Origin: Amoebophrya sp. A120
Taxonomy: Eukaryota; Protista; Dinoflagellata
NCBI GenBank assembly: GCA_905178155.1
Contig: CAJINV010000005.1
Location: 9,217,604-9,243,444 of the forward strand
Direction of reading: 5' to 3'
Length of the DNA: 25,841 nucleotides
This document shows, one piece after another, positions 1,794 to 24,937 of this stretch (position 1 is the stretch's first letter; each line of letters starts with the position of its first letter). Below the pieces are notes generated by a model, which was not told the DNA's origin, ran no database searches, and saw nothing but the letters and a program-made list of their open reading frames with translations. The position numbers and the translations under genes were made by a program.

Positions 1794-4297
1794 TTGCTGG
1801 AAGAAGAGGAAAATCTTGACAGAGACGCTAGTTTGCCGCCCAATACAAGAGGTGCGCAACGAATAAATCACCTGAACAATAAATCCACCTCGAGTAGTTC
1901 CATCCACGCAGATTTAGAACCAACTTTGCTAGCGGAGACACTGCAACAGAAGCGGAGCCGAAGTGGTAGCAGTTCCAATCTCATCAACAAAAATGGGCAA
2001 AACAACAACAATTCATCCAGCAACAACTCTTCTTTCGGAGGACCGCCTGCGAGAAACAAGCTGAGCCTGACGAACACCAGCGAGCATTTTTCTTGCAATT
2101 CGAATTTTGAAAACAACTACAACTCGTCCAGCGAGGAAATATTTAAAGTGGAGGAAAAGAATATACTGGGAAATTCTTCGTCCAGCACTGCGCATGAACA
2201 AGACAGTTCTTCCTTCGCGTTGAATCCGTTTCCAACAGGAACGTCGGCGGACGGGTTGGGCTTGTGTTTTCAAAAGTACAACGGGACGAGCGGTTCATCG
2301 TCTTCATCCGTGGGGGTTCATTTTAACGCGGCCGGGAATCCTGTTGATTTCACCAACAAGACTCGTGGCGCCAGTACTGCTTCCTCCAGCTCTAGTTCTG
2401 CGACAGCCACGTCGAAATACCTGCTTGATCTACCGTTCACGTTGAAAGAGAGGCGGGTGGAGCAAGCGCCGGCACTATCCAAGAAAAAAACTGTGTTAGT
2501 GTGGGTCTTTTGGGAAAACAGCATCACAAGTTTGTCTGCCATGACAGGAAAAACTTGTCATGCGCAGATACGACGGGAAAACACGGAGGAAACGAGCCTA
2601 CCATGCATGTGGAGCATGATGACACGCGTAACTGTTTTGCTTTTTCTGCATCACAGACTTACACTTACACAGTGTTTTTCTTTGATAGGCACCGGTGGTG
2701 GGCGGAAGTAGGCGCAGCTCCTCGACCTCGCAGAGGGTGAGTTTCTATGGATTGCAAAAATGTCTGGGTCTGGAAGATTGCAACTTGTCATGCGAAATCC
2801 GAATCATGCAAAAGTCTGTGTTGCATGAGTGCCAAAAGCTGTCCACTTTCGACCAAGTTGGGAGGGAGTTTCTCATGCAGGATAGGCATGAAAGAGACCT
2901 CGCAGACTCTGTCGTGCTAGGTCCCGCATTCCAGACCTGAAGGGTCAGGGAAAACGTGCATGACAAGTTCACACTCTTCCAGACCCAGACATTTTTGCAT
3001 TTGATAGTTTGAGCGGCTCTGCAACTTCGAACGTGATGGCTTATTCGAAACAGCAGACTGTTCTCCCGCCGGCGGAATCTATACAACTAGGGACGACATC
3101 ATCTTCAAACAGGCCGACTACAACGCGTCCGGGAGTTATAATTCCCGGTGTGAACACAAGCGCGGCACACGTGAAAACTAGCACGGACTACGCGCAGCTG
3201 TCTCCGGACAAAAAACAGCGGGAGAGAAAGAACTCGTGGATATAACCTGCTCAGGTGTTACAATCTCAAACGCCACGAGAGAAATGGAAATTTGTGATGC
3301 AAAAAGTGCATGGTCTAGTCTGCTGTCACGGGATTGCGCATGACAAGTTACGGAGCTCCAAACCGCATGAGGGTCTGGCGAAATTTGTATTGCGAAAAGC
3401 GCAAAGCTCTGCAGGTTCCTTGTTATGCTCTCTATGCAATACAAATCCCACAGCCACGTGCTATTAGAGCATTTGAGACTGTAACATCTGAGCAAGCCAT
3501 AGTGGAGCGCGGTGAGTTCTAGCTCCTCGAGTTCCGCGACGAGTGCTACCTTCGTTGCACCAAGTGGAACCACCGCCGCCGGGGGGCGTGTTGCTGACCG
3601 TTCCCCGCCAAAACAGCGGGATTTTGGCGGAACAATTGGAGCTGCTTCCGCTGCTGGTACGAACGCCTCAGCGTCGTCACAGACACGAAAACCACTATAC
3701 AACGAAGCGCCGTATAAGCCGCCGCCGAGGACAACTATAACAGGAACGGCGCTCAATTGTATGGTCCCCTCAGCTGCTGGACAAGGACAAGGTCAAACTC
3801 CAACTACCAACCCCCTCCCCATCAGCCGCTCGTTGTTCGCCGGGAGCAAGCATACGATCCCGCTGACCACCGGGAAGCGGATTTTCATCACGCCGCCAAC
3901 AGGGCCCGGGGCTTTGTCCTCGTCGAGCAATAATATCAGTAGGAATCCACCACTGAATAGTGGTTCATCTCTTCTGAACAACCCGAGTTTGTTGAACACG
4001 AGTAGTGTTGCACCATCATCAAATCATGCGGCGAATCATTCCGCGAACAACTACACCCGATCTACATTCATCCACCTGTCGAGAACAGACTCGGAAGCCG
4101 CTGTGCCACAAGGGAAGATTATTTCCGCGAGCGAACGAGAAGAGTTGCAGCACTTGCAGCAATTGATCAAGGAGAGGGACGTGTTGGTCGCGGAATTGCG
4201 GAAAAAAGTGCTGGAACCGGAGGAAATTCGGAAGTTGAGTGTGTTGTTGGAGGAATTGCGCGGCTTGCGGGAAAGCAGCGCGAATGGGAGGAAGTGA
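1794..4297 (+). CDS. Gene 1, 5'-partial: Ser/Asn/Thr-rich low-complexity protein with a C-terminal coiled coil, function unknown; about 584 aa visible
   Basis: Exons ~1794-2475, 2693-2745, 3012-3240 and 3507-4297 join in frame (..APAPVVGG..RVS[F/L]SGSA..NSWSAVSS..) after removing three introners plus 5 nt each. It starts immediately after an introner end, so upstream exons are probably outside the window. The 3' end could extend via a GT-AG intron. Confidence 0.75.
2476..2687. mobile_element. Introner family B (212 bp)
   Basis: TIR TATCCAAGAAAAAAACTGTGT / ACACAGTGTTTTTCTTTGATA; DR GGCAC/GGCAC; frame restored. Confidence 0.92.
2746..3006. mobile_element. Introner family A1 (261 bp)
   Basis: 31-bp TIR with core TGCAAAAATGTCTGGGTCTGGAAG; DR GTTTC/GTTTG; close copy of 11237-11497. 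Confidence 0.92.
3241..3501. mobile_element. Introner family C (261 bp)
   Basis: TIR core TGCTCAGGTGTTACAATCTCAAA; DR GTGGA/GTGGA; related to 18780-19041. Confidence 0.92.
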
Positions 4298-6554: not shown

Positions 6555-9500
6555 ATGCCACCTTCGAAGAAGCAAAACGTGAATTCTGGCGAGGCCAAGA
6601 AGCCCAACGCCAAGGCCAAACCGAAGGCAAAACCGAAGGCGAAGCCCAAAGCAAAACCGAAAGCAAAACCCAAGGCAAAGCCCAAAGCGGAACCAAAGGC
6701 GAAGCCGCAAGTGGAGTTGGGAGCCAAACCCGAGGCAAAACCGAAAGCAGAGCCGAAGGCAAGAGGGCGGCCGAAAGGCAAGGGCGCTGCGAAGCCGAAG
6801 GTAGCACCGGTGAAGAAGCAGGAGGGGGCAAAGAAACACCAGCAGGAAACGACTTCTCCTAAAATCGGTAAGGAAGTAGTTGTAGAGCAGGCGGCGGGAG
6901 GGCCAGCGGCTTCCTCTTCTTCTTCTTGTTCTGCTTCTGCGGCCGCATCCGCATCGGCAAAACCCGCGAAGGAAGAGAAATTTGTGCAAGGAACTAGCAC
7001 GACTCTCAGCACGACCAGCCCAATCGTTAACCTTGCTCCGGGGGCGAAACTAGCGGAGAAAAATAAAGTTCATTTCAATACAACCAGCTCCAGCTCCAGT
7101 CCGCCTGCTCACGTAGTTGTACCTCCTGTAGCAGGGAACAACAAAGAAGCTGAGGGCAGCACCAGTACGAAAGTTATTTCTAGCACTATAATTACTGACG
7201 CGCAGGGCAGACTGAAGAGACTTGAGATTTTTTTTGATCCAGTGGCAAAGAAGCAGAGGGTTGTGCAGCACTTTATTGAAGACACTCCTCCTGCAGAAGA
7301 AGTTGCTCCGGAGAAGGTGGCGTCGTCGAAGAAGGCAGGTGCTTTGGAGACTACCTCGAAAAGTGGTAGTGCCGCCGTTGCCTCTGTGCCAGTGCCAGAG
7401 GAGAAGAAATTTGACAACACGAAAACAAGTTCCGGTCCTGTACCTCCTGCACTTGCGCCACTGAGTACTTATTCTAGAAAGGAGATCACGAGGACTGCTG
7501 TTGACACTAGTACCTCCAGCACCGTCGCAGCTGGTATTGCTCCGTCGAAGAAAAAGAAGACAGGTGAAGAAGAGACTACTAGTACCTCAAACAGCGTTCC
7601 TCTTGTAGCTGTGCAAAATAAACTGAAAAAGCAGAAACTTGATACAACAGAGTTGTTGTCCACCTGTTCTACCACTGGTCATCTCGCAGGAGCAGTCGGA
7701 GGTGCAGCTTCTGCGCAAAAGGACAAGCAAATCGACACGTTGGTAGAAAAGAGTTGTTCCGGTGTTAATACCGCAGGTTCTACTTTGTCTGGAGCGAAGA
7801 ATAAACCTTCTGCGACTTCGATCTTATCTCAGAGTAAGAACGTGGACGTCAAGCAGGAGAAGATCGAGAGCAAAACTGGTGGCTCCACCGAACCTGTCCC
7901 TGCTGTTGCCTCACCAAAGGAGGAGCGCGTTGATATAAAAATTACCACGACTGCTGCTGAAGATGAAGACGTGCCAGCAGCTGCGGTGGTGAAAGTTGAC
8001 GTTGCCACTACAACTTCCAGCAAAGACGCGCCTGCTGCTCTGCCGGTGGAACAAAAGAAAGTTGCCGTTGCCAGCACTCCTTCCAGCGAAGACGCGTCTG
8101 CTGCTGCGCTGCCGAAGCCAGACGAGAAAGTTGCCGTTGCCAGCACTCCTTCCAGCGGAGACGCACGCGAAGGGCTGCCGAGGCCAGACGATAAAGTTGA
8201 CGTTGCCAGCACTCCTTCTAGCGGAGAGGCACGCGAAGGGCTGCCGAAGCAAGACGAGAGCGCCGAGATTGTCAGCACTCCTTCTGGTGAAGAAGCGCCA
8301 GCAACTGGGTCGGAGAAAAAAGACGAGAAAGTTGACATTTCCACTAATTCTGACGAAGACGCGCCTGCAGCTACTTCGCCGGTGGAAAAAGACGTGAAAG
8401 TTGACATTGGCACCACTTCTAGCGAAGACCCGCCTGCTGCGCTGCCGAATCAAGAGGAGAAGGAGGTTGACGGCGCCAATATTTCTTCTACAGGAGACGC
8501 GCCAGCAGCTACGTTGGTGTTGACACAAGACGAAAAAGTTGACATTGCCACTACTTCTAGCGAAGACGCACCAATAGCAGCTCTTTCGGTGAAACAAAGC
8601 GAGAAACAAGTTGAGGTCTTGCCCACTTCTAGCGAAGACGCGCCAGCAGCTCTTTCGGTGAAACACGAGGGGCAGAAAGTTGACGTTGCTACTACTTCTA
8701 GCGAAGACGTGCCAGCGGCAGCTCTTTCGGTGAAGCACGGCGATAAAGTTGACGCTCTTCCGACTTCGAGTGACCACGCATCAGCAGCTCCAGCGGAAAA
8801 AGAAGAGAAGCGTGAGGACGATTCCACTCCTTCTAGCGAAGAACACGCAGCACCTGCTGCAGCTCTGCTGGTGAAGCAAGAGAAAGTCGACTCCACCCCC
8901 TGCCCGACGGCTAGCGAAGACGCACCAGCAAGAGCTGCTGTAGTACCGGAGAACAAACACGACGAAAGAATTGACATTACCTCCGGGACCACTTCTGGGG
9001 AAGACGGATCTACTGCTGTTCTGCCGAATCAAGTAGACGGGAAAGTTGACATAATTACTAAAAATTATTCGAGCGGGGAACACGAAGAACACACGCCAGC
9101 TGCTTCAGCGGTCGTGGAGGAATATAAGGAAGTTGACATTACCACGACGGTGGATAGTGGAGACGCGCCAGTACTACCAGCTCCATCAGAAAATAAAGAG
9201 CTCGAAGATCTTCATAAAGCTGACAGCGCGAATATTCTTGCCAGCGAACAAGAGAACGGTCCATCTGCATTTGCTCCAGGTCTTCGGGAGAAACAAAACG
9301 ACGAGGGCACTGACGTCATTATCGCCACTTCATCTTCCAGTGGGGCTGGTGACGCAGTAGACGCAGTTGTTCCTTTGCCAAAAGAAGACGGCAAAGAAAT
9401 TGACAAACCTTCGACGACGTCGCCGCCCCTGACCCCAGTCTCTACAACTCCATCCACCAGTTCCCCCGCAGCAGTGGCGGGAACAAAAGAAAATAAAGAT

Positions 9501-12500
9501 AATCCAGAACAAGAAACACAAGCAGGCGTGAAAAACAGCTTTTCAGCTATACCGGACATCGACAAGAACAATCTTATCAGCGACAAGCAACTGACGGCGA
9601 TCCGGCTGAGACACAAAAAGATGGCGGAGGCCATGGAGAAGCTGTTGAAGTTGCAGGAAGACTACAATAAAAAGAACCGGCTCCGGGTTCTCATCCTCGG
9701 CGGCTCGACCTTCGTTGGCAGAACGTTGGTCCGGAACATCTTGAAAGAAGTCCATCATTATCAACTGCAACTATGTCTGGGTCCTCTGGAAACTTGTGCT
9801 GCGGGGAAGGGAATACTTAGTGAAAGCACTGTAATGCGCTGCCGAGCATGACAAGTTTTGCTGTGGTTCTGAGTTGCGTACTCTGCATGAGAAACTGCGC
9901 TTTTGTATGACAGGCAAGAGGAGCTCTTCGCGGCCACGCAATACAGAGTTCAGAGTCATGCCCGACTAGCATGACAAATCTCGCAATCTCCCAGACCCAG
10001 ACATGCTTGCAGTGCATAATCATTTGGACTTGGCGATTCTGAATCGCGGCCGGAAGTATTGGGATGGCGACTGGCAGGGCGCATTTCCGCCGACGAAGGA
10101 GAACATTCATGAAACAATATCGTAAGGAAAAATCCCCCCTCCCCATATCGAAAAGGCATCCTTTTGAAAATTTGTGATGCTGATTTGCGGCCACAAATCA
10201 GGTCTGTCTTGCAAGAGAGCAAAGCCCGAGCTTCCTCCGCTTTACGCCGGCGATTTGTAATGCTGCTGCGCTAACAGGGCAGCCGTCTGCCTCTGCCATG
10301 CTGAGCGCCCACTTCCAGCCAGCCCCTTCCAGGCTTTGCATCTGCCTGCAGTCCTCTAGGGCAATGCAGAGCTGATTTGCGTACACAAATTCCGCAACAC
10401 AGATTGCCATTTTGATATGGGGAGCGGGAATTCTTTCTTTTGATAAACAAACACGCTGAGGATCTTCCCCGGGGATCGGCGGAAGATGAAAGGGAAGCCT
10501 TTTCAGGACATCATCGCCAAACTTACGATCGAAGATAAAACCCGCTTTTATTACGATGAGGTGCTGGACTACATCGCAAAAACTCATGGGGCGGGAGATG
10601 AAAATGGAAATGACAATGGAAATCAAAATCCCTCGTCATCTATCAAATGCAAAAGTGTCTGGGTCTGGAAACTTGTGATGCTAAAAGTGAATGGTAGACG
10701 GACTGCAATACGCGGTATGCATGACAAATTTTCCGGCTCCCATGTCTTACGTATTCCGCATAGCAAACTGCGTTTTTGCATGACAGGTAAGAGGGCCTTT
10801 TCGTGCCTATGCAATACAGATTCTCAAGTCATGCCAGACAAGCATGACAAACTTGCATTCTTCCAGACCCAGACATTTTTACAGTTGATATCATCCAGTT
10901 GTGCGGATCATAATGGGAAAAAGACCACCAACATGATCTCGTCAACCAATCCATCTGATCCATCTGATCATGGGAAAATGACTAGTGCAGCTGCTTCTAG
11001 TTCATCATCATCATCATCAGCAGGTGCTCCTGCTCCTCCGCAGGACAGCATCAACAAGAAAAAGCCGTTTTGGGACGTGATTGTGGATTTCTGTTGTTTC
11101 CAAGAGTCAGAATTTCAAGACGTCATGAAGGGGTTGTACTTGGCCGGGAAATTGGTTTGTGACGAGAGGTGGAGCCTAGAAAAAGAGAAAAGGGAAAACC
11201 ACAGAGTTCACCCCCAGGTGGTGTGGGATCACGCGATATGGATTGCAAAAGTGTCTGGGTCTGGAAGATTGCAACTTGTCATGCTAAATCCGATTCGTGC
11301 AGAAATCTGTGTTGCATGAGTGCCAAAACCTTTCCACTTTCGACCAAGTTGGGAGGGAGTTTCTCATGCAGGATAGGCATGAAAGAGACCTCAGAGACTC
11401 TGTCATGCTAGGTCCCGCATTCCAGAGCTCAAAGGTCATGACAAACCTGCATGACAAGTTCACACTCTTCCAGACCTAGACATTTTTGCATTTCATACGC
11501 GAAACAAGCCAACGTCGTTTCCGACAACTTTCCCCCGGAAGCCTTCGTCAGTTATGCAAGAAAAAAACTATGTAAGTGTAAATCTGTGATGCAAAAAATG
11601 CAAAACAGTTACACTTGTCATGCTGAGTGTGCGTAATAGGCCACTTTCCTACGTATTTGCACGTACTAGCTGCGCATGACAGGTTTTTCCTGTAATGCAA
11701 AGCGAATTTGTGATGCTGCTCATTCTACAAGGTTACACTTACACAGTTTTTTTCCTGGATATCAGTCATTACATCTTCATTTCCACGGATTCCGTGTATG
11801 AGGTGTGCGGTCTCGAAAAGTGCGCAAAGGAAAGAATCGCGATCGAACGGCTCTTATGAACTGCAAAAGTATCGTAGTGCTAGTAGTAATGGCAATACAA
11901 ATTAGCTCAGCATGACAAATGGAATTTGTCATGCTGTTTTGATGCCTTGGGATAAAGATTTGTAAATGCATGACTGCGATTAGGATTACTACGAGTGCGA
12001 TGCTTTTGCAGGTCATAGCTTTTACCCAAGAAGGACGTGGAGAATTATTACAAGTGGAAATTTTCGGATGCGAAGCTACTGCATAGTATCCTGAGTAAAA
12101 ACGTACCCACACCAGAGTTGTAATGCAGATTTGCAAAGACAGGAAGACTTGTAATGCGCATCCCCATGAGAGCCATTCCCAGTCGTGTTTTGGAATTTGT
12201 GATGCTGTGAACAGGATGAGCAGATGAATCTGTGACGCGGCTGCACTTGCTAACCTGCACTACACTGCATAGCGCAACTTGTCATGCGTGACTCACAAAA
12301 CTCCTAGGTTTGTGTTGCAAAATCCTCATCCTGACTCTGGTGTGGGTACGTTTTTACTCAGGATAAGGACTACGACTACTTCAACATCTGGGGCGGGTAA
12401 GAGCGACAGCAAGCAGAGCCTTGGCGGAAAAGCAGAAGTGGAGCACGGTAGTTCAAGTTCAACAACATCAGTTATGGATTGTAAAAATGTCTGAATCTGG

Positions 12501-15500: not shown

Positions 15501-17451
15501 TTGAGCATTGGAAATTTGTGATGCTGACATATGCAAGACCGAGAATGGTTCCATTGGAAAGGCGGGTTGCAAGACAAATGCTGCCAAGTTCTGGGGTGGG
15601 GGCATTTTTCACTGTAATAGTTTCGGGAGATCGTTTTGAACGATGGTTGTGAAAGAAGTTTTGCCTGTTTCCAGGGACGAAGAGAAGCAGAGGCACCCGC
15701 CGAGCTCACGGGTGTTGACACAACAGACCAAGTGCACCAGTTGGAAAAACAAATTTTGCCTGCTGGTTCTTCTGAAAGCAGTCCGGGCTCTTCTCACTCC
15801 TCTGCTGCGGAACAAAATGTTGTGTTGCAGAAACGACAGAAAACCACCACAGATGTTGAGGCGAACAAGAACCAGGAGCGGAAAACTCACGACGAGAAAC
15901 CGGGAGGTAGTAGTGGTACAACTATTAGAGCTCCTCCTGAAGTTGTAGCAGAGAGCAGCAGCACGCATCATCCTCTCGACGAGAAGATGAAAGAAGGTGA
16001 AAATAAAGACGTCGCCGGGCCGCGGGGCGGGTTTACTCCGGATAACAGAGTTAGGTTCCAACCAGCGCATGATCCTTGCCTCGAGAAGATAGAGAAAATA
16101 AAAGCAGCAAGAAAGAAAGAAGCCGCGCAGCGAGAAATCGAGGAGAAGAGAGTCATATTGAACAAAAACTACCTCCTATGGAGAGAAAAAAGTTTGTCAC
16201 AGTCACTAACTTGCAGGTTTTGCATTACAAATTTTCTCAGCATCACAAACTTTCCTTGTATTGCAGAAACACTAGGGAAATGCCTAATGAAGTATGGCTG
16301 TGATGCATTTTTACGCATGACAAACAATTTTGTATTGCAAGAATGCGCATGAGTGATCGTGACGAATTTTTTTTCTTTGATGCCTCCCTTCTGTTTCCCG
16401 CCGGACGAAGCCGCTGGATTTCGAGAAACTTTCTCAGTACTTGCACGAAGTGTCCTTTTCCGGAAAAGTGCACCAGTTGCCGATCAGTTCCGACGTCGAC
16501 GAGAAGACTTCCAGCTTGGAACACGTTTACCGAAAATGCCACGAGTTCTATCCTGAGGAAAAACGTGGTGTCGCCCACAGGTGGGAAATCTGCTAGAAAA
16601 ATTAGCCAGCTTTGCTTGTTTCGCATGACAAACTTGGGCTCGCAATGTAGTCGCATGACAAAAAATTTGGGCTCGCAGCATCACAGATCTCGGGCGCAGT
16701 GCTGATCCCTTCGGGTATCGCAAATCTCAAATCACCACTAGAAAATGCTTCTCATGGGTCTTTGCATAAGCATGCAGATGTGCATTACAACTCTGGGGAG
16801 GTGGGGCTTTTTTCCTCCGGATAAGTTTTACAAGAAAGTGGTCGACCGGGCGATTGTCGAAGTTGAGGATTACAGAAATGGAAAAATATGCGTTGCAAAA
16901 GTACTATCATACTCGTAGTTTTTGATTGCAATCGTGCATGACAAACCTTCATCCTAAGCTAAATCAGCATGACAAAAAAATTCCGTTTTGTCATGCTGAG
17001 AATTAGTTTGTGATGCAATTTCTCCTACGTACGATAGTACTTTTGCAAAAATGTTGCATAAAAAAGACGCGACAGTAAGAACAGTGACTTCATCGGCGAT
17101 TTCTACGAAAGCTTCGTAGATGCGCGGAAAGGCCTGCCCTTCCGTGTGCGGGAGGAGTTCGAAAGGTTAGCGTTTGAGGATGGAGGAGGGACAAAGGATG
17201 ATAATGATGATCATCTTGCGAGAGAAAAACGACCGGGGGACGAGAAGGAAAAACCGGGGGACGAAAAGGAAAAACCGGCGGGGAAGAAGGATGTGGTGAT
17301 GGCAGATGCTCTTGCGGGTGGATGTGGAAAGGAGGATTTTGAGAAAACCAAAGCAAAGGTGTTGAAGCTGTATAAGATGATGGAAGAGCTTGAGAATGAG
17401 TCAAGCAGCGATTCTAACTCAAGTCACGACAGCGAATCATCTTCGGGATGA
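6555..17451 (+). CDS. Gene 2: ~2065-aa protein with a PKAK-repeat basic N-terminus, an acidic repeat region and a C-terminal extended/atypical SDR (NAD-dependent epimerase/dehydratase, CSP41-like) domain; 20 exons, 19 introners
   Basis: Span 10897 nt minus 4699 nt (19 elements plus 5 nt each) = 6198 nt, open to TGA at 17449-17451. SDR motifs appear in the correct order across exons: VLILGGSTFVG, ILNRG, GDR, WDVIVDF, HYIFISTDSVY, YGHKKLRVEE (YxxxK), LRVPDILGPYDDTNR, VFSEDMA, ALNFGCEE, YLPSV..PLD. Confidence 0.88.
6601..6810 (+). repeat. Coding 12-nt repeat encoding (KPKA)n, histone H1-tail-like
   Basis: Translation AKAKPKAKPKAKPKAKPKAKPKAKPKAEPKAKP, with third-position codon variation between units. 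Confidence 0.9.
7929..9200 (+). repeat. About 18 degenerate coding repeats of ~22-29 aa, consensus KVD[V/I]ATTSSEDAPAAAL
   Basis: Visible in the translation and in the DNA (AAAGTTGAC..ACTTCTAGCGAAGACGCGCC). Confidence 0.9.
9759..10018. mobile_element. Introner family A2 (260 bp)
   Basis: DR ATCAT/ATCAT; removal joins EVHH to LDLAILNRG; inverted relative to 21427-21689. Confidence 0.93.
10118..10445. mobile_element. Introner family D (328 bp)
   Basis: TIR TATCGTAAGGAAAAATCCCCCCTCCCCATATC, imperfect; DR AACAA/AACAA. Confidence 0.92.
10641..10890. mobile_element. Introner family A2 (250 bp)
   Basis: DR TCATC/TCATC; family A TIR; inverted relative to 12803-13054. Confidence 0.92.
11237..11497. 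mobile_element. Introner family A1 (261 bp)
   Basis: DR CGCGA/CGCGA; family A TIR. Confidence 0.93.
11553..11761. mobile_element. Introner family B (209 bp)
   Basis: DR TCAGT/TCAGT; removal joins AFVS to HYIFISTDSVY. Confidence 0.93.
11855..12017. mobile_element. Introner family E (163 bp)
   Basis: TIR TATGAACTGCAAAAGTATCG; DR GCTCT/GCTTT; related to 14297-14446. Confidence 0.9.
12087..12365. mobile_element. Introner family F (279 bp)
   Basis: Perfect 32-bp TIR TATCCTGAGTAAAAACGTACCCACACCAGAGT; flanks CATAG/AGGAC give no 5-nt DR; frame restored by removing element +5 (or +2) nt. Confidence 0.9.
12473..12737. mobile_element. Introner family A1 (265 bp)
   Basis: DR TCAGT/TCAGT; family A TIR. 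Confidence 0.92.
12803..13054. mobile_element. Introner family A2, inverted (252 bp)
   Basis: DR ATGGG/ATGGG; perfect TIR TATCAAATGTAAAAATGTCTGGGTCTGG. Confidence 0.93.
13093..13349. mobile_element. Introner family A1-like (257 bp)
   Basis: DR CCCTC/CCCTC; family A TIR. Confidence 0.92.
13603..13865. mobile_element. Introner family A1, inverted (263 bp)
   Basis: DR GAAAA/GAAAA; reverse complement aligns by eye to 12473-12737. Confidence 0.92.
13902..14211. mobile_element. Degenerate introner with A-like TIR (310 bp)
   Basis: TATGCA...TGCATA ends; DR decayed (GACGA/ACCAA); removal +5 nt brings the YGHKK motif into frame. Confidence 0.8.
14297..14446. mobile_element. Introner family E (150 bp)
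   Basis: TIR core TGCAAAAGTATCGTACT; DR CTCCC/CTTTC. Confidence 0.88.
14601..14827. mobile_element. Introner family B' (227 bp)
   Basis: TIR TATCGC..GAAAAAA.TG.TTCACTGTAA; DR TCGTG/TCGCG; inverted relative to 24156-24364. Confidence 0.9.
14883..15044. mobile_element. Introner with E-like TIR (162 bp)
   Basis: TATGCATTGCAAAAGG / CCTTTTGCAGAGCATA; DR GCGGG/GCCGT. Confidence 0.86.
15307..15619. mobile_element. Introner with F-like TIR (313 bp)
   Basis: TIR TATTACA[A/G]TGAAAAATGCCCCCACCCC; DR GTTTC/GTTTC. Confidence 0.92.
16177..16382. mobile_element. Introner (206 bp) ending in ATG
   Basis: TIR core AGAAAAAAGTTTGTCAC..TCACT; DR CCTCC/CCTCC; removal gives NYLPSVSRR. Confidence 0.9.
16549..16823. 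mobile_element. Introner family F (275 bp)
   Basis: TATCC.GAGGAAAAA ends; DR AGTTC/AGTTT; internally similar to 18428-18721; has a small internal tandem duplication. Confidence 0.9.
16887..17060. mobile_element. Introner family E, inverted (174 bp)
   Basis: TIR core TTGCAAAAGTACTATC; DR AAAAA/AAAAA. Confidence 0.9.
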
Positions 17452-18184
17452 TTATACATGAGATTTGCTGATGAAGAAAACTAGGTAGAGCAGGACTACG
17501 TAGTGCGTAACAGATTGCCCGACTCTGAAGAAGACTTTGCTTTTACATTCTCTTACTATCTTTGCAAGGAAAGGTGTGCTTTAGGTAGACGACCAAATGT
17601 CTTCATCCATGATGTGAACAACACAAAATCTTGTTTTGTGAGGTCTCTCTGAATGCAGAAGCGAAATAAAAAACCCATTACCCATAAAAAATCGCCGACC
17701 TGCCGGTCTACTTACTTACAGGCACAGTAGATGCAGCAGCACGACAAGAGCGAAAAAATTTGCTGTTGCATTGCATTTTTTCGCTAGTTCTCTTCATGTT
17801 CGTTAGCTCTACTTCTACGCTATGATCGTGTCGTGTCCATATAATTTCTGTCGAAAAAACGAGCGATTGCTATGCCAAAATGTGGTGGTCGAGAGGGGGA
17901 GAGCGTCTTCGTATTTAAGTATGTGGTTCGCGTCCGTGTCGCGCTCGTCGTGCTCGTTGAGAGTAGGCCTGAGTCTTAGAAGATAGAACTCCGGACGAGA
18001 AATCTGATTTCGGGCCTCGAGGACCTGGGGCTCAACTTTCATCGCCTCACGTTGGCACAACAAAATGCTTCTTCTAGCTGCGCAGGTGAACTAGTAGTAC
18101 AGCAAGGCTCGGCTGTACGTAGTTTTGAAGTAGATTCTGAAACAAATATATAAAACTGTGAATTGTCAAACTATCAACAGCAAA

Positions 18185-21100
18185 ATGCTCTATTTCCGCC
18201 GATCAGGAGCAACGACCATCTTCGCGGCCCTCGCCGCAACCTCAACGACCCTGGTCGTCCAGGCCCGGCGGAAGCCCGGACTCGGCGCGTCGCACCAGAA
18301 GAAGTTGCAGACCTTCGTTACCATCGACGGTAACGCGGATCAAGAATACCACGATGATGACGCGCACCTCTACCTTGCAGACGAACACGCGGACGAACAT
18401 CACGAGGAGCATGATGACCACACGTCTTATTCTGAGTAAAAACGTCCCCACGACCACAGACATAGTCCAGATGGGAACTTGGCAACACAAATCAAAACAA
18501 GGTTTGGCTGTTGCGCATGACAAGTTTGGGCTCGCAGTGTAATCCTTTACAGCTGGTGCAGCCCGAAGAGAAATCGACACTGTCTTCCTCATTCTCGCAT
18601 GACAAACTCGTCCCCGTCGATGAAATTAGAAAATGCCTGTCATGTGGCTGCGCATGAGAAACTTTTTAGGCATGCAGATTTGCATGACAACTCTGGGGCA
18701 AAGACGTTTTTGCACAGGATACGTCTTTCATCGAAGTGAAGCGGCCGAAGAAGTTTAAGCAGAAACTGGATTCCGAGCTTATGACCCGCACAGACGTGGT
18801 TACAATCTCAGCTGTTACAATAGAATCTGGAAATCTGTGATGCAAGAACTGCATGATCTAGCCTACTCCCATAGGATTGCGCATGACAAGTTTCGGAGTC
18901 CCAAATCCGCCTGAAATCCGGCAAAATTTGTATTACGAAAAGCTCAATTCGCTCTGCGTTCCTCATGCTCTTCATGCAATACAAATTCCAGAACCAGATT
19001 CTATTGTAACGTTTGAGATTGTAACTTTTGAGCAGGCCATAGAGCTGAACGACGAGGCGTCCGCCTTCCTCGACGTGAACAATCTGAAGGATGACGAGGG
19101 GACAAAAACTACGGGGAAGGGTGGCGCGGAGATCACCGGCATGGAACTGGATATCCAAGAAAAAAACTGTGTAAGTGTAAATTTGTGTTGCAGAACATGC
19201 AACAGAGCTACACCTGTCATGCCAGACAGCCATAAAGTCCTCTTTTCATTTGTGTTTTCCCTTACAAGCCACGCATGACAGGTTTTCTCTGCCATGTAGA
19301 GCAAATTTGTGATGCTGTTCCTCAAAGAAAGTTACACTTACACACTTTTTTTCTTGGATACTGGAGAGAAAGAAGAAGAAGGAAACCGTCAAAACGGAGA
19401 ATGTCCAGATCACATCGCAGAAAAACTATCCACTGCAAATATGTCTGGATTTGTGATGCGAGATGCGAAGGACAGCGAGATCTGTAATGCTTGAATACGA
19501 TTATGGTCTTTTTTTCGTCGTTCTCGACGGGAATGAATCGATCCGCAAGAAGTTGGGGAAACACAACTTCTCATGCTGTGATGCAAGTATCACCAACACA
19601 AGTTGTTTCCAGACACCCAGATGACATAGTTGCATTTGATAAAAACGTAAAAACGTCGACTGCCGCGCCCGTCACGAAAGCTGCTACGACCACCAAGAAA
19701 ACTACGACCACGACTACCACAACGGACATCAACAATGGACTGGTAAGATGATAGAGTTTTTTTGTCATGCGCAGAACGCATTGGACATGCATTTCTGTCA
19801 TGCATGAATTGCAACGACAATTAATGCGCGCTTCAATCAAAATTCAGGTCAACCCGCGGTTGCGCGAGAAGTACCACCCGGACCACATGACCGGGCACAA
19901 AGCCTCTTACGGGGTCTTCGCCATCATCGGGGGCGTCATCCTCGGTTTCGGGCTTTTTGTCACGGTTTTCTGCATATGCATTGCAAAAATGTCTGGGTCT
20001 GGAAGGATGGAAGTTGTGACGCGTGCGGTGGATCACACAAAAATCGCTCTTGCGTGATAGCCAAAAGTTGCCCTTTTCTGACCACCATGAGAGGGAGTTT
20101 CTCATGCAGGGCAGGCATGGTAGAGACCTCGCAGAATCTGTCATGCTAGGTCCTGCATTCCAGACGAGACCTCTTGGGCATAGAAACCCAGCATGGTAAC
20201 TTTGTATTCTTCCAGACCCAGACATTTTTGCAATGCATACTGCATCTACTACGGACCCAAGTCGAAATCGAAGGAGAGCGACATTTCACGGACGCTGAAC
20301 AAGGACTACGACAAGGCCGCGGGAAAGTCACCCGAGTCGAAGCGCGGCAAGAAGGGGGAGTCAAGTGTGGGTGGAGAGGGGACTTCGTACGGGAGCTATG
20401 AGAGTGCACAAGTAACCCCCCTCACCGCTCCCCTCAGTTGTATTGTGCAGAACACCAAATACGTGTTTAGCTGACGAATTCTGGCGACCCCCCGGGCGCC
20501 GTCATTAGGCTGCTTGGGGGGGTTTGGGGGGGCAAGATTCAGCGTAGCCGGCTAGGGTTCGGCTAGGGTTCGGCCAGGGTTCGGCCAGGGTTTTCGCCCA
20601 GGGTTTTCGCCCAGGGTTTTCGCCCAGGGTTTTCGCCCAGGGTGCGCCCAGGGTTCGCCCAGGGTTCGCCCGGGGTTCGCCCGGGGTTCGCCCAGGGTTC
20701 GCCCAGGGTTCGCCCAGGGTTCGCCCAGGGTTCGCCCAGGGTTCGCCCAGGGTTCGCCCAGGGTATTCTGTGTGTTGTTTTATGTTCGTTCCTGTAAAAT
20801 AAATGTTGGGGACAGAGGGGGGCGGTGCACTCTCATAGGAGCTCGGAGTACTACAGCAGTTCGCAGTACACCAGTGGATCCTCATATGCAAGAAAAAACC
20901 ACTCCCGCGTGTGAGTCTGTACCTGTAGTGAGTAAGTGTGTAGACGTATGCTGGCCAGGAGCCACGAAGCCCTCTTTTCATAAGGTGGCGTCTTAAGTGC
21001 TAGCAGTGCATGACAGCCTTGCTCTGTCATGCGAACAAGATTTGATGTCCTGCTTTGCTGTCACTACTTCAAGAAAGCTGAAGCTACTTCTCACAGCACT

Positions 21101-22352
21101 AAAGCAGCTTTTTTCCTGGATGCCTCTCGCGTGATGTCCGGCGGCAGTTCCATGCAATCCGGCGGCAGTTTATCCCATGAAGAAGTGTGTCTGTGTGAAC
21201 GGAGTTTATCATGCAATAACATGCAAAAAGGCTGGCAGCGGCAGCGCTGAAATTTGTATTGCGTAGCATGCTTTAGCTTTCACTTTCTAGGGAAAATCTG
21301 GAACAATGCCTGGGTGCAAGCCGTGAAATAAATCGTTTACGCATAAAACATTTTTGTGGTTCTTGATAAACTTCCTTCCCGCCGAGCAGCGCAACTGCTG
21401 CTTCTTCTGCAAGCCGTGCCACCAAGTATCAACTGCAAACATGTCTGGGTCTGGAAGATTGCAAGATTTGTCATGCTAGTCTGGCATGACTCTGCACTCT
21501 GTATTGCGTGGCCATGAACAGCCTCTCGAGCCTGTCATGCAAGAACAACGTAGTTTCTCATGCGGAATGCGCAGCACAGAAGCACGAAAAAAACTTATTA
21601 TGCCTAGCTGCGCGTTACAGTTCCCTTATTGTTATTGTTCACTGACTTGCATCACAAGTTTCCAGACCCGGACATATTTGCATTTGATACCAAGAAGTCC
21701 AACGCAATGACGAAGCCGAAGTCGGTTACTTCCTCCGGAGCGAAGCTATGCATGGCAAGAGTTTGATCGCACTTGTGTGAATTGCATCACAGATTTTTGA
21801 TTTTCCAGAATCAACAAAAAATTGGAGTTTGTGATGCTGCTCTAGAAATAAAATAAAAGATAGATCTGTCATGCGATTTGCCACGCGGGGTTGTGCGATA
21901 CTTTTCCATAGCATAACAATCGGGCTACTCGATGACGTCCTCCAAGTACGAGGAAGACGGCTACGGGGAAGAGGAAGAGGACGACTACGAAGACGAAACT
22001 GCGTATGGGAGTGTCAGGATCGAAATCGTCAAAGGTGAAATTGTTTGCCATGCATAAAATGCAACGCAGAAATTGCCTCTATTGCAGAGGACGCAAGGGA
22101 GGCAGATTGTAGTGCTGGTAGGGGTCGAGAAATGGGCTGCTGATTAGCAACACAGAGGGGAGTCCCTTTGCCCTGAACAGCATGACAAACTGGCTTCCTG
22201 TACGGACAAAATTTGTCATGCACCGACTAGAAGCTGTGGATCCAATTGGTATCGATTTTATGCATTGCAAGTTACTTTAACTCCGTCGATTTCAATCCTG
22301 GTACTCCGATACCGCGTTCCATTCCGGGGGTGGGAAAAAATCTAGAATGTAA
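18185..22352 (+). CDS. Gene 3: ~381-aa predicted type I membrane protein (signal peptide, His/Asp-rich patch, Thr-rich stalk, one TM helix, Ser/Tyr-rich and acidic cytoplasmic tail); 13 exons
   Basis: Span 4168 nt minus 11 introners (+5 nt each) and one 105-nt GT-AG intron (3022 nt in total) = 1146 nt, open to TAA at 22350-22352. N-terminus MLYFRRSGATTIFAALAATSTTLVVQA; TM YGVFAIIGGVILGFGLFVTVFCIYY. Confidence 0.82.
18428..18721. mobile_element. Introner family F (294 bp)
   Basis: DR CGTCT/CGTCT; TIR TAT.CTG.G.AAAAACGTC. Confidence 0.92.
18780..19041. mobile_element. Introner family C (262 bp)
   Basis: DR GAGCT/GAGCT; similar to 3241-3501. Confidence 0.92.
19152..19360. mobile_element. Introner family B (209 bp), inverted relative to 2476-2687
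   Basis: DR CTGGA/CTGGA; near-perfect 29-bp TIR. Confidence 0.93.
19427..19641. mobile_element. Introner with A-like TIR (215 bp)
   Basis: DR AAAAC/AAAAC; TATCCACTGCAAATATGTC / GACATAGTTGCATTTGATA. Confidence 0.9.
19743..19847 (+). other. Canonical GT-AG intron (105 nt) in gene 3
   Basis: CTG|GTAAGA...ATTCAG|GTC; removes an in-frame stop and joins DINNGL to VNPRLREK. Confidence 0.8.
19975..20239. mobile_element. Introner family A1 (265 bp)
   Basis: Perfect 31-bp TIR; DR CTGCA/CTGCA. Confidence 0.94.
20397..20837. mobile_element. Introner (441 bp) containing a minisatellite
   Basis: Perfect 13-bp TIR TATGAGAGTGCAC; DR GGAGC/GGAGC; removal joins TSYGS to SEYYSSSQY. Confidence 0.88.
20550..20764. 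repeat. 11/13-bp minisatellite GCCCAGGGTT(TT)C with a telomere-like AGGGTT core
   Basis: About 19 tandem units directly visible. Confidence 0.95.
20885..21122. mobile_element. Introner with B-like TIR (238 bp) ending in ATG
   Basis: TATGCAAGAAAAAA / TTTTTTCCTGGATG; DR CCTCA/CCTCT. Confidence 0.82.
21171..21368. mobile_element. Degenerate introner (198 bp)
   Basis: TATC...GATA ends with weak TIR; DR CAGTT/AACTT; frame restored (GGS to SFPPSS). Confidence 0.72.
21427..21689. mobile_element. Introner family A2, inverted (263 bp)
   Basis: DR CCAAG/CCAAG; family A TIR. Confidence 0.93.
21747..21915. mobile_element. Introner with E-like TIR (169 bp)
   Basis: TATGCATGGCAAGAGT..ATCGCAC / GTGCGATACTTTTCCATAGCATA; DR lost (GAAGC/ACAAT); frame restored with +5 nt. 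Confidence 0.78.
22004..22311. mobile_element. Introner, singleton family (308 bp)
   Basis: TIR TAT.GGAGT..CAGGAT.GAAATCG; DR CTGCG/CCGCG. Confidence 0.88.
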
Positions 22353-22399
22353 GACTCGTGACGTGGATTCAAATTTGGACGATGTTTCTCGCTAGGGTA

Positions 22400-23600
22400 C
22401 TAAGCAAAGAGTGCTTGAGTTCCTTTGCCGCGATGTATCATCATCCTGTCACTATCTATGAGTGTGAACAATTCGGAACTTCTTCCATAGTTTCAAGAGC
22501 GCGATTGTCAAGTCTACTAGCGTGTTGTTTGACAGTTTCAGAAGTAAAAAAACCCTGTTGACACTATACTGCTGCAAAAATTGATTGTGAAAAAAAATGT
22601 ACCGACCCTTTATCTGAGTTTTAATTGTCTTGACACTTTGACTAAGTACCAGTGCCTCGATTGCAGCTAAGATTTCAGTATCACAACTACGACTACCCAG
22701 TATTGACTCATTATTGTTTACGATCTTTACGACCTCTGCTGGGCCGCCAGATTTTATACCCGAAGAAACGTTAGCTTTCCTGTGCACCTCCACCTTTGAA
22801 ATTGAAACGATAGCAAAAAGCTTGAGAAATTATTGTAAAATTTGAGAACAAAAATGCGAAGATGAATCTTCAAACCTTTGTACAATACTTGAAACACTAC
22901 GAGAAATGAAAAAATACACACCACCAGCAGGAGCGTTGTCGTTCTTGAGACGGCTTCGCAGGAGGGCCACGTCACTGTAAGAGCCAAGAATTACCGGGAG
23001 CAGAAAGAACATGATTGGAAGTACGCAGGCAGTATTAGCTCAACAGATCTGTTTAGTACTTTGTAGCTGCTGGCTGCGAACAGAGACTTCGTAGTTCGTG
23101 GGGTGCGTCGTGGTATCGTGAATGATGAACAGGAACTCGTACATTCGATCCGGTTGCGTCGTGTCGCGAGGGGAGAGAGACCACGAGCAAGAGTAATTTT
23201 TACTAAGCAGACCGCTTTCTCGTCGCTTTCTTTAAGAAACAGAAGTGGTTATCGCATCGACCGTTCTCGTCGTACTGAAGATTCGCTACCCGTTTTCGCC
23301 CTCGTCATGATTGTTCGCATACTTCTTCGTGGAAGCTCTCTGGTGTTGCTTTCGCATTAAGACCGTACTGTCGCACAGAAGTAGTTGCACTGCTAAGTTT
23401 AGATTCACGATCTGAAGGTGCGGATGGACAGCCAAGAAGACGGCTGAACAAAAAAAGTTCCACGAACACTTATTGCAAATCCATACCAAGTGCAAGTAGT
23501 TTCCTAGTAGTTGCGACAGCTTCGAAATTAAGAGGCCTTTCGAAGGTATAAAGAAACGAACGACTGCTCTTCTACAACTGTACGGTATAATACGAAGTAG
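22400..23600 (-). pseudogene. Possible decayed Ty1/copia RT C-terminus and RNase H
   Basis: Broken minus-strand fragments SQLLGNYLHLVW, LGSYSDVALL..GGVYFF and SRSCDTEILAA resemble copia motifs in the right order; recognised by eye only. Confidence 0.4.
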
Positions 23601-23644
23601 CATCACCGCCAGAACTACTAGTACGTCTCTGTGAGGACGAGAAA

Positions 23645-24937
23645 ATGGAGCAACGCGAGCGAATCACCTCGAGCAGCTCTACTTCCCGGCTCTACGCCCG
23701 GAATCATCACAGCGCGAATTCCTACCAGCTGGAGCAGGAGCTGCAGGATGTCAACGAGATGGATTTTTTGCCGTCTGTGAACGCCTCCGACGGGACGACG
23801 AGTCACTTCAACTATCACACATATCCTTTGCAAAGTATGTAAGTTGCAGTTTGTTGCATGACAGATTAATTATCCTATTTCAAACTGCATGACAAACCCC
23901 ACTTTACCTTTTGAAAAAAGTTGTGTTGCAACTCATACTACTGTGATTACGCCTTTGCAATGCATAATCCCGCAACATCCCAGCCGACTCCCTCCACCTC
24001 TTCAACGTCCTCGAAAATAATCGAGAAGATGAACTCGTCAACATCGCCCAGCAGTAGAGCCGCGTCGAAAAAGAACTGCTGCTTCCTTCTCTTCCTCGCA
24101 GCAGCGGTGTTCTCGATTTTTTTCTTCATCCACGAATTGCACCTCCGATTCATCCTATCGCAAGAGAAAACTGTTTCACTGTGCACTTGTGATGCAGAAA
24201 AAGCATCACTGAAGTGTTTGTCTTGCTGCACATGCAAGACAGTGGACTTTTAGCTGTGTTTTCCCTTCAGAATCTCGCATGGCAAATTTTCTTTGTGATG
24301 TGGAACAAACTTGTGATGCAAAACTTGCAAAATCCTTACAGTAAAACACTTTTTTCGTACGATACATCCACAACTGGATCTTGCCGAACCTCCTGCACAA
24401 CAGTAACCTTTCATCTACATCGCACTATGAAACGATTGATGGAGAACAGCATGACAAACTGAGGAAAATCAGCGACGAACTTCTGATGCAGGGCGCGGGG
24501 CAACACTTCAACTTCTCCACCGGAATTATAAACGAGGTTTTTGACGAGGAAAACGCTTTTTCGCTGCTGTCGACGGATACCGTCATGAAAACCGGGTTCA
24601 TGCAGGGTACGCTACACAAATTTCAGGATTGTAGTCAGACCATGAGCGAATGTCGTGGAGGTTTGTCATGCGAAAAGTGCATGAGGTGAAAGATTTGTAA
24701 TGCGAAGAGTGCATCAGCAACACATGTTTGACAGACCGAAATCTGTGTTGCATAAACGTGAATGAAGTAGCGGAGGAGAAGGTGCACGTGCGGAGCGACG
24801 ATGACGAGACCGACGATGCCGACGGTGGAGATGAGGAGCATGACGGTGGTGAAGAAGGAGATGAACATGAAGATGCCGATGCCGATGTAGCCCCACCCGC
24901 ACCTGCTAACGACACGCCGGGAAGCAAACGTAGTTGA
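23645..24937 (+). CDS. Gene 4: predicted type II membrane protein (one N-proximal TM helix, acidic stretch); 3' structure uncertain
   Basis: Exons 23645-23821, 23972-24155 and 24370-24606 join in frame after removing two introners; TM CCFLLFLAAAVFSIFFFI. A probable GT-AG intron from 24607 leads to an Asp/Glu-rich exon. The gene may continue past 24937. Confidence 0.62.
23822..23966. mobile_element. Introner with E-like TIR (145 bp)
   Basis: TATCCTTTGCAAAG / CTTTGCAATGCATA; DR decayed (ACACA/ATCCC); removal of 150 nt is in frame. Confidence 0.8.
24156..24364. mobile_element. Introner family B' (209 bp), inverted relative to 14601-14827
   Basis: DR CATCC/CATCC; reverse complement aligns end to end with 14601-14827. 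Confidence 0.93.
24607..24770 (+). other. Probable GT-AG intron in gene 4 (acceptor at 24770 or 24734)
   Basis: CAGG|GTACGC donor; both AG options are in frame with the downstream acidic exon. Confidence 0.5.

What the first reader, a model, noticed from the sequence alone, without database searches (positions are those of the whole stretch)
2476..24364. Shared internal motif TTGT[G/C/A]ATGC across unrelated element families
Seen: families with dissimilar TIRs and bodies nearly all carry several copies of TTGTSATGC / GCATSACAA (variants TGTAATGC, TGTATTGC, TGTGTTGC) on both strands, e.g. GCATCACAAG 2521, TTGTCATGC 2555, TTGTGATGC 3292, GCATGACAAA 10719, and the near-palindromic pair AGCATGACAAATGGAATTTGTCATGCT at 11909. 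It is rare in exons and intergenic DNA. Inference: a common binding site for one transposase, splicing helper or chromatin protein serving all families.
Basis: partly seen in the sequence, partly recalled or inferred. Interest (0 to 1): 0.8.

Follow-up and report, generated by a model that had tools for sequence, protein, structure and literature searches.

The report
Spaced motif inside parasite's jumping introns
The many transposon-like introns of a marine dinoflagellate parasite share one short, conserved DNA motif, mostly laid out in pairs about 32 bases apart, which is likely the docking site of a single still-unknown DNA-binding protein and offers a bait for catching the machinery that spreads or handles these introns.

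Summary
The motif is real: 64 exact TTGTSATGC against 0.7 expected, 60 of them in 37 elements. The elements are the known non-canonical introners of Amoebophrya A120 or a near relative. They have TAT…ATA ends and 5-bp duplications, and RNA-like contigs lack them exactly. I found no paper describing the motif or its layout. In 218 held-out elements from a near-A120 assembly, 215 carry it. It reads as half of a loose 23-bp palindrome, and 170 of 218 elements have two site centres 29-34 bp apart (60 expected), in direct and inverted arrangements. Core bases are 2.1-11.6 times better conserved than spacers in 11 of 11 families. It shows little strand bias, and a motif-free element is still spliced. 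A double-stranded DNA-binding site is therefore likely (about 0.8). Best mechanism: subterminal binding arrays for the mobilising machinery, probably an integrase-type transposase (0.5). Main rival: a host protein selected after insertion (0.3), since the motif pair also occurs in three GT-AG introns without inverted repeats. No transposase was found. The families are not unrelated: all share end and duplication type. The scan's notes held no earlier report of this motif; two describe position-set intron ends in other protists.

The parts
1500..1792 (.). Element of the 322-bp family, left end degraded, no target duplication found; 5 motif sites
   Evidence: aligns with 10118-10445
1794..4297 (+). 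Host gene 1 (unknown protein); frame opens when 3 elements are removed
   Evidence: exon 3502-4549 covered by RNA-like contigs
2476..2687 (.). Element, 209-bp family, TSD 5/5, 3 sites
2746..3006 (.). Element, 262-bp family, TSD 4/5, 4 sites, centres 52/83 (31 apart)
3241..3501 (.). Element, 259-bp family, TSD 5/5, 4 sites, convergent pairs (centres 30 and 35 apart)
6555..17451 (+). Host gene 2 (about 2,060 aa, no Pfam hit in the two stretches scanned), 19 elements as introns
   Evidence: RNA-like contig X5 record 12 matches the spliced model at 8 of 8 checkpoints
9759..10018 (.). Element, 252-bp family, TSD 5/5, 5 sites
10118..10445 (.). Element, 322-bp family with an inner second TAT…ATA pair (10146-10417), TSD 5/5, 4 sites
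10641..10890 (.). Element, 252-bp family, TSD 5/5, 5 sites
11237..11497 (.). Element, 262-bp family, TSD 5/5, 5 sites
11553..11761 (.). Element, 209-bp family, TSD 5/5, 5 sites
11855..12017 (.).
12087..12365 (.). Element, 279-bp family, six sites all in one direction (centre gaps 31, 48, 33, 49, 31); TSD only 1/5
12473..12737 (.). Element, 262-bp family, TSD 5/5, 6 sites
12803..13054 (.). Element, 252-bp family, TSD 5/5, 6 sites
13093..13349 (.). Element, 262-bp family, TSD 5/5, 7 sites
13603..13865 (.). Element, 262-bp family (opposite orientation), includes a full two-half site
   Evidence: RNA joint 13597>13866
13902..14211 (.). Element, singleton, TSD 2/5, 5 sites
   Evidence: RNA joint 13900>14216
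14297..14446 (.). Element, short group, TSD 3/5, 4 sites (gaps 18, 32, 31)
   Evidence: RNA joint 14295>14451
14601..14827 (.). Element, 209-bp family, TSD 4/5, 4 sites
   Evidence: RNA joint 14599>14832
14883..15044 (.). Element, short group, TSD 3/5, 2 sites
15307..15619 (.). Element, 305-313-bp family, TSD 5/5, 6 sites
16177..16382 (.). Element, variant right end (ATG), 6 sites
16549..16823 (.). Element, 279-bp family in antisense orientation, 4 sites
16887..17060 (.). Element, short group, 4 sites
18185..22330 (+). Host gene 3 (unknown protein), 11 elements and one GT-AG intron
18428..18721 (.). Element, 279-bp family, antisense orientation, 5 sites
   Evidence: RNA joint 18421>18721
18780..19041 (.). 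Element, 259-bp family, centres 68/98 and 161/193
   Evidence: RNA joint 18774>19042
19152..19360 (.). Element, 209-bp family, 4 sites
   Evidence: RNA joint 19145>19360
19427..19641 (.). Element, 5 sites
   Evidence: RNA joint 19420>19641
19743..19847 (+). Canonical GT-AG intron without inverted repeats, carrying a direct motif pair 33 bp apart (19763, 19796)
   Evidence: RNA joint 19741>19847
19975..20239 (.). Element, 262-bp family, 2 interior sites at the stricter threshold
   Evidence: RNA joint 19969>20240
20397..20837 (.). Element whose interior is largely an 11-bp tandem repeat; no motif, still spliced
   Evidence: RNA joint 20391>20838
20885..21122 (.). Element, variant right end (ATG), one divergent pair (centres 32 apart)
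   Evidence: RNA joint 20879>21123
21171..21368 (.). Element, singleton, TSD 3/5, 2 sites
   Evidence: RNA joint 21168>21372
21427..21689 (.). Element, 252-bp family, 5 sites
   Evidence: RNA joint 21420>21689
21747..21915 (.). Element, TSD 1/5; its unambiguous joint fixes the splice register (-1, +4)
   Evidence: RNA joint 21745>21920 with no ambiguity
22004..22311 (.). Element, 308-bp family, 5 sites
   Evidence: loose end at 22004 continues in the next exon
23645..24935 (+). Host gene 4 (predicted; frame opens when 3 elements are removed; no RNA joint seen)
23822..23966 (.). Element, short group, TSD 2/5, 3 sites
24156..24364 (.). Element, 209-bp family, TSD 5/5, 4 sites
24599..24754 (.).

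Best explanation
The motif is a conserved, regularly spaced sequence inside the TAT…ATA introners of Amoebophrya and is likely the subterminal binding site of the one protein complex predicted to mobilise all these families. Shown: the consensus is RRAYY-TGTSATGC-W. A weaker mirror half often follows 15-16 bp on, giving a loose 23-bp palindrome with its centre at +11. Centres come in pairs about 32 bp apart (three helical turns) in direct, convergent and divergent arrangements. The first centre usually lies 44-45 or 54-55 bp from an end, and most families have such a pair near each end. Splicing removes the element plus 5 nt, from 1 nt before TAT to 4 nt after ATA, in either orientation and also without the motif. 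Inferred: two dimers of a DNA-binding protein sit side by side on one face of the helix at each end and help pair the ends. The enzyme is probably an integrase-type DDE transposase that leaves 5-bp duplications. Specificity would lie in the motif rather than in the variable inverted repeats, which would let one enzyme serve many families.
For: Enrichment: (15.9 sites/kb in elements, 0.17 in exons, 0.37 intergenic). Held-out set: 215 of 218 have a site; 170 of 218 have centres 29-34 apart, against a null mean of 60 and a maximum of 79 in 500; direct 30-33 pairs occur in 10 of 14 hand-merged groups. Window: one representative per group gives 14 pairs against 2.7, look-elsewhere null maximum 11. 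Three estimates of the centre agree near +11: the mirror half at +15/16 in about 20% of sites against mostly 0-5% at other offsets, convergent pairs 45-48 and divergent pairs 17. Conservation: core mismatch 0.03-0.13 against spacer 0.28-0.41 in 11 of 11 families, with the free middle base much higher, 0.18-0.53. Not a tandem duplication: 0.31 against 0.27 control identity. Strand: 716 sense against 632 antisense; the one-direction family lies 19 against 22. End distances of 44-45 and 54-55, weak 10-11 bp periodicity (R 0.43-0.48, effective n about 25); 44-45 holds for inward and outward half-sites. PMC12130899 lists A120 family 38 as 'Ginger, 5-bp TSD, TA/TA termini' with integrase-like homology. 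Internal transposase sites at set spacings are known for P elements (PMC7776569 passages).
Against: No transposase was found: 0 of 100 ORFs scanned, only a small part of the genome, and PMC7789003 reports none in A120. The motif pair occurs in GT-AG introns with no inverted repeats: 1 RNA-confirmed in the window and 2 of 47 predicted; 13 sites against 1.0 in shuffles. These introns do not align to any element. The core stays constrained even between the closest copies (ratio 0.45, 95% 0.24-0.75, 14 pairs) while end positions 4-15 do not (1.36, 0.88-2.23), which fits selection after insertion as well. Spacers inside pairs are not clearly more length-constant than others within families (20 of 225 against 39 of 224 deviating; 2.8 against 3.5 per kb). 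The divergent-35 class fits the centre model only as a 50-bp spacing and would give 32 with another centre (+2). There is a small sense excess (144 against 110 elements, p 0.04).
Confidence: 0.5

Rival explanations
1. A host double-stranded DNA-binding protein (chromatin or transcription-coupled factor) binds the paired sites and helps the gene tolerate or splice the intron; selection acts after insertion, and introners spread because they carry the mark.
For: Motif pairs 33 bp apart in three GT-AG introns that share nothing else with the elements. Predicted canonical introns have 13 sites against 1.0 shuffled. Core constraint persists in the closest copy pairs. PMC7789003 found no U1 snRNA and no transposase in A120.
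Against: 39 of 47 predicted GT-AG introns have no site. Element 20397-20837 has none and is skipped in RNA contigs. Fixed distances to the element ends suit an end-processing enzyme. The 'closest' pairs still differ by about 10% in spacers and may span several rounds of transposition.
Confidence: 0.3
2. The motif works in RNA, as a site for a splicing factor or as pairing arms that fold the intron.
For: Motif bases are more often paired than spacer bases in predicted folds (0.74 against 0.58). Small sense excess in elements; 10 of 13 sites in predicted canonical introns are sense.
Against: The commonest arrangement is a direct pair, which cannot base-pair. In the 279-bp family 42 of 47 copies have all sites in one direction, and the family lies 19 with and 22 against transcription. 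Sense (12087) and antisense (16549, 18428) copies are both removed. A motif-free element is spliced.
Confidence: 0.12
3. The motif has no function; it is inherited from one ancestral element or survives through a low mutation rate.
For: All families share end type and duplication length. 26 of 37 window elements chain together at a loose threshold. CpG contexts change about 1.4 times faster and the core has none.
Against: Core conservation is 2.1- to 11.6-fold above spacers in 11 of 11 families and remains after trinucleotide correction (0.31-0.56). The same centre spacing arises from three different orientations in families whose masked interiors score at null level.
Confidence: 0.05

Closest known systems
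Non-canonical introner elements of Amoebophrya sp. A120 (Farhat et al. 2021, PMC7789003; sections 11 and 16, passages, supplement text searched; figures not seen)
   Same: Ends start TAT, about 7 variable bases, then A's; short direct repeats; about 240 nt; non-canonical splice ends; many families. The assembly with the same families has a protein 97% identical to A120's.
   Different: The text read describes only terminal and direct repeats and calls splice sites variable relative to the hairpin. Here an internal motif with fixed spacing is shown, and one splice register (-1, +4) fits all 14 element joints seen.
A120 introner families, family 38 (Gozashti et al. 2025, PMC12130899; passages, 12 of 14 supplementary files searched, 41 of 58 A120 rows read)
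   Same: Family lengths match ours (about 106, 149, 208, 214-227, 252-260, 278, 305, 319-322 bp). Family 38 has a 5-bp duplication, TA/TA ends and integrase-like homology.
   Different: No motif string in the files searched. Family 38 (808 bp) was not available to me, so whether it carries the motif is untested.
IS3EU/GingerRoot, Ginger and IS481EU integrase-type DNA transposons (PMC10045372, PMC6839031, PMC2836005; passages)
   Same: TA..TA ends (IS3EU/GingerRoot), TNT..AYA ends (IS481EU), 5-bp duplication (TDD-4/5 of Ginger2).
   Different: IS3EU/GingerRoot usually make 6-bp duplications, Ginger ends are TGTNR, IS481EU makes about 4, 15 or 25 bp. No transposase was found here.
Internal transposase-binding sites of P elements (PMC7776569, passages); subterminal repeats of hAT elements and Tn7 TnsB arrays (recalled, or search listing only)
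   Same: Short internal sites at defined distances from the ends, separate from the terminal repeat.
   Different: P has 8-bp duplications and one site per end. Here sites are loose palindromes in 32-bp pairs, shared by families with different terminal repeats, and also found in a few ordinary introns.
Euglenid nonconventional introns (PMC11282704, passages)
   Same: Transposon-like introns with terminal repeats that pair in RNA and non-canonical ends.
   Different: No shared internal DNA motif is described in the passages read; the pairing register differs.

Membership tests
Amoebophrya A120-type introner elements (Farhat 2021) | Terminal inverted repeat starting TAT, 7 variable bases, then at least three A | tested here: met
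   positions 1-3 TAT at 0.97-1.0 (largely imposed by the element caller), positions 11-14 A at 0.75-0.79 (not imposed), group-weighted; definition
Amoebophrya A120-type introner elements (Farhat 2021) | 3-5 nt direct repeat at the boundaries | tested here: met
   without a TSD filter 263 of 378 calls have 5/5 and 59 have 4/5
Amoebophrya A120-type introner elements (Farhat 2021) | Removed from mRNA with non-canonical ends | tested here: met
   14 of 15 listed joints skip element + 5 nt (19 further joints not shown); 19 elements of gene 2 fit contig lengths. RNA status of the runs is the tool's guess, one sample; the same contig also lacks the GT-AG intron.
Amoebophrya A120-type introner elements (Farhat 2021) | Host is A120 or a near relative | tested here: met
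   Indirect: 28 of 37 window elements have full-length matches at 70-96% in JACKZZ01, whose UBA2-like ORF is 541/560 identical to A120's CAD7964686.1. The window's own genes were not matched to A120.
IS3EU/GingerRoot | TA..TA termini | tested here: met
   definition
IS3EU/GingerRoot | 6-bp target duplication | tested here: not met
   duplication is 5 bp; spliced length is element + 5 in 14 of 14 joints
IS3EU/GingerRoot | Integrase-like DDE transposase in autonomous copies | tested here: inconclusive
   0 of 100 ORFs had a transposase family; whole genome not held
Ginger1/Ginger2 | TGTNR termini | tested here: not met
   termini are TAT; definition
Ginger1/Ginger2 | 4-bp duplication (5 bp in TDD-4/5) | tested here: inconclusive
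   5 bp here, matching only TDD-4/5
Subterminal transposase-binding arrays | Repeated short sites at fixed distance from the ends, conserved beyond neighbouring DNA | tested here: met
Subterminal transposase-binding arrays | Bound by the transposase and needed for transposition | not testable with these tools
   needs binding and mobility assays
RNA splicing signal | Strand-specific and required for splicing | tested here: not met
   716 sense against 632 antisense; motif-free 20397-20837 spliced

The most novel reading that the evidence does not exclude
A host DNA-binding protein reads paired sites 32 bp apart on the chromosome and marks introns for removal during transcription in an organism with no detected U1 snRNA. 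Introner families then spread by carrying this DNA-level intron mark: intron definition written in double-stranded DNA.
Probability: 0.15. Interest if true: 0.92.

Novelty: new variant of a known kind. Interest (0 to 1): 0.62.

Why it matters
How tens of thousands of A120 introners move and are spliced is an open question: the genome paper found no transposase and no U1 snRNA. A conserved site with a defined geometry gives a direct bait for pull-down or DAP-seq and a marker for finding the autonomous element. It also suggests how one enzyme could serve families whose terminal repeats differ. The fixed splice register (one base before TAT, four after ATA) should correct gene models in this genome and constrains the splicing chemistry.

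Tried and rejected
No whole genome is held for the window or for L002. Viral contigs: one hit to the layout pattern, AT-rich with only the two pattern sites, judged chance; none to the commonest end sequence. Rfam: 0 matches. Pfam: no transposase in 100 ORFs. The 2026 raw-read RNA run X9 laid only 11 reads and was uninformative; no listed holder is on record as RNA. BLAST clustering of masked elements over-split families and was replaced by Smith-Waterman; single linkage at score 36 chains 337 of 382, so family counts depend on the threshold. One 'control' was only the reverse complement and is no control; the shuffle control gave 0 calls. Idea that the terminal repeat holds a degenerate motif at positions 4-11: best score in that orientation, but the other orientation scores as well at position 3 and several groups are at background, so inconclusive. 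Tandem duplication as the source of the 31-bp spacing: rejected. Extra length constraint on pair spacers within families: not shown. Motif decay with duplication mismatch (1.7, 1.7, 1.3 and 1.0 sites per 100 nt at 5, 4, 3 and 2 matches) is too noisy to date selection. The gene HMM is crude: many false canonical calls on the window, so intron counts are approximate. Rows dropped: L001, L035, L057, L113 and L131 (not JACKZZ01); 128 of 351 elements that matched the search pattern (left out of spacing and most conservation counts; used, in defining site columns, and in the second mode); 6 elements over 460 nt. The 255-element set includes the 37 window elements used to train the matrix; one search gives the 218 held-out ones. 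Literature: searches gave no paper describing the motif; the string search returned 1,408 papers, and the 25 listed were unrelated. Resemblances to CRP, ApiAP2 or p53 sites are recalled and untested.
Full report
Observation. TTGTSATGC occurs 64 times on both strands against 0.70 in shuffles. I called 37 elements from terminal repeats and target duplications. They hold 60 of the 64 hits in 9,003 nt, against 1 in 10,024 nt of exon and 1 in 4,798 nt of intergenic DNA. The matrix consensus is RRAYY-TGTSATGC-W.

What the elements are. They begin TAT and end ATA (three have one variant end), are 145-441 bp long, and are mostly flanked by a 5-bp duplication. This is the A120 signature in Farhat et al. 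2021 (PMC7789003, sections 11 and 16 read). A pattern scan of metagenome contigs (16 of 64 parts scanned) gave 144 loci, 140 from assembly JACKZZ01. 28 of 37 window elements have full-length matches there at 70-96%. A JACKZZ01 ORF is 541/560 identical to an A120 protein. The window is therefore inferred to come from A120 or a near relative. DNA run X1 shows summed depths mostly in the thousands to over 100,000 in bins with the commoner elements, against about 20-70 in element-free bins.

Splicing. Contigs of four runs (one sample; RNA by the tool's guess) skip the elements. 14 of 15 listed joints remove element plus 5 nt, and the fifteenth is a GT-AG intron (19 more joints were not shown). Only one register fits all 14: from 1 nt before TAT to 4 nt after ATA. 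Removing 36 elements this way opens four + strand frames, and one contig matches the 19-intron model of gene 2 at 8 of 8 checkpoints. Families are removed in both orientations. Element 20397-20837 has no motif and is removed. The two ends pair in predicted RNA folds in 29 of 36 elements. So splicing likely depends on the ends, not on the motif.

Are the families unrelated? In the window, masked interiors form 18 groups at Z>=8, but 26 of 37 chain at Z>=5. Among 382 elements, 16 families of three or more have between-family median scores of 12-22, against a null median of 16 and a 99.9th percentile of 32, with one exception. Interiors are thus mostly non-alignable, but the shared ends and duplication length point to one kind of transposon.

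Layout. In the window, same-orientation copies lie 30-33 bp apart in 36 pairs against 6.2 expected. With one representative per group it is 14 against 2.7, above the look-elsewhere maximum of 11. In 218 held-out JACKZZ01 elements that do not match the search pattern, 215 have a site. Of pairs up to 70 bp apart, 169 of 363 direct pairs are at 30-33, 64 of 140 convergent pairs at 45-48, and 28 and 56 of 181 divergent pairs at 16-18 and 34-35. A mirror half-site follows at +15/16 in about 20% of sites. Taking the centre of that 23-bp palindrome (+11), direct 31-33, convergent 45-48 and divergent 17 all become centre spacings of 30-33; divergent 35 becomes 50, as do direct 48-51. 170 of 218 elements have centres 29-34 apart against a null mean of 60, maximum 79. 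All ten families F0-F9 have such a pair, most near both ends. The first centre is usually 44-45 or 54-55 bp from the end, with weak 10-11 bp periodicity. The pairs are not tandem duplications. Against the model: pair spacers are not clearly more length-constant within families, and divergent 35 would also give 32 with a centre at +2.

Conservation. With sites defined on one part of a family and divergence measured on the other, core bases differ at 0.03-0.13 and spacers at 0.28-0.41 in 11 of 11 families. The free middle base differs at 0.18-0.53. After trinucleotide correction the core/spacer ratio is 0.31-0.56 in all four divergence bins, and 0.45 (0.24-0.75) in the 14 closest pairs, where end positions 4-15 show 1.36 (0.88-2.23). 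Alignment anchoring on motifs may add to the effect; the middle base argues against that being all of it.

Strand and location. In 302 of 382 elements that could be oriented (the caller was right in 36 of 36 window cases), sites are 716 sense and 632 antisense. The family whose sites all point one way lies 19 with and 22 against transcription. A motif-blind gene model gives 15.9 sites/kb in elements, 0.17 in exons and 0.37 in intergenic DNA. It gives 13 sites in 47 predicted GT-AG introns (8 introns, 2 with a 33-bp direct pair) against 1.0 in shuffles. The window's confirmed GT-AG intron has the same 33-bp pair. These introns do not align to any element.

Mechanism. Shown: enrichment, conservation, a spacing largely independent of half-site orientation, near strand symmetry, and splicing without the motif. 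Inferred: a dimeric protein binding double-stranded DNA at three-turn intervals (about 0.8). Which protein is open. The end-linked layout favours the mobilising complex (0.5), likely an integrase-type transposase: TA..TA ends mark IS3EU/GingerRoot (PMC10045372 and PMC6839031 passages), and A120 family 38 is listed with 5-bp duplication, TA/TA ends and integrase-like homology (PMC12130899). Membership of those superfamilies is not claimed: the duplication length or the termini fail, and no transposase was found in 100 ORFs. The pairs in ordinary introns and the constraint among close copies favour a host protein selected after insertion (0.3). The two readings may both hold. An RNA signal (0.12) and neutral ancestry (0.05) fit poorly.

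Novelty. The elements are published. The motif string is absent from the Farhat main text and supplement text as searched ('TGCA' and 'CATG') and from 12 of 14 supplementary files of PMC12130899. It is not described in passages of PMC9860276, PMC11453091 or PMC11282704. Nine searches gave no paper on it. Figures, theses and subscription papers were not seen. The scan's notes had nothing near this window or like this sequence; a word search gave four notes on other genomes' introners. Verdict: a real, apparently undescribed binding-site layout in a known intron class; interest 0.62.

Noticed in passing
window, all element introns (e.g. 21746-21919): One splice register fits all 14 element joints: the intron starts 1 nt before TAT and ends 4 nt after ATA. 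When that first base is G the donor reads GTAT, in register with ordinary GT donors, which suggests a relaxed canonical 5' site and a 3' site set by distance from the end.
   Followed up: partly
window 12087-12365; L056 near 6328; L061 near 8375; L120 near 300 (merged-locus positions): Young-looking elements (89-95% to their nearest copy) with only 0-2 of 5 duplication bases matching; possible replacement of an older element by conversion, or insertion without duplication.
   Followed up: partly
window 10118-10445 and 1500-1792: The 322-bp family has a second TAT…ATA pair 28 bp inside its ends, as if a new terminal repeat was added outside an older one.
   Followed up: no
window 680-1400: Satellite with a 21-bp period (two helical turns) whose unit is nearly palindromic and resembles the TGCA-rich end of the short families; it has no exact motif.
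   Followed up: partly
window 20520-20765: 11-bp tandem repeat filling element 20397-20837; telomere-like in flavour (resemblance recalled).
   Followed up: no
window 25430-25841: A different repeat of about 200 bp with one strong motif site per unit (25512, 25716) and no inverted ends seen.
   Followed up: no
window 4950-6000: GC-rich (72%) island between genes 1 and 2, partly covered by RNA-like contigs (5665-6004).
   Followed up: no
window 24929-25020: Possible GT-AG intron at the end of gene 4 with one variant motif site (24963); no RNA joint seen.
   Followed up: no
window 24449-24490: Two strong motif-like sites 33 bp apart (divergent) inside what reads as coding sequence of gene 4.
   Followed up: no
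L103, L119, L121, L128, L036, L050: Minimal 108-115 bp elements made of two ends and a single 32-bp motif pair (mostly selected by the search pattern).
   Followed up: partly
JACKZZ01 element spacers: CpG-containing trinucleotides change about 1.4 times faster than average, hinting at CpG methylation of the elements.
   Followed up: no
window 9680-9760: Gene 2 has a Rossmann-like GGxxFVG stretch after a long low-complexity N-terminal region (recalled resemblance to NAD-dependent epimerases; the first-exon scan gave no Pfam hit).
   Followed up: no
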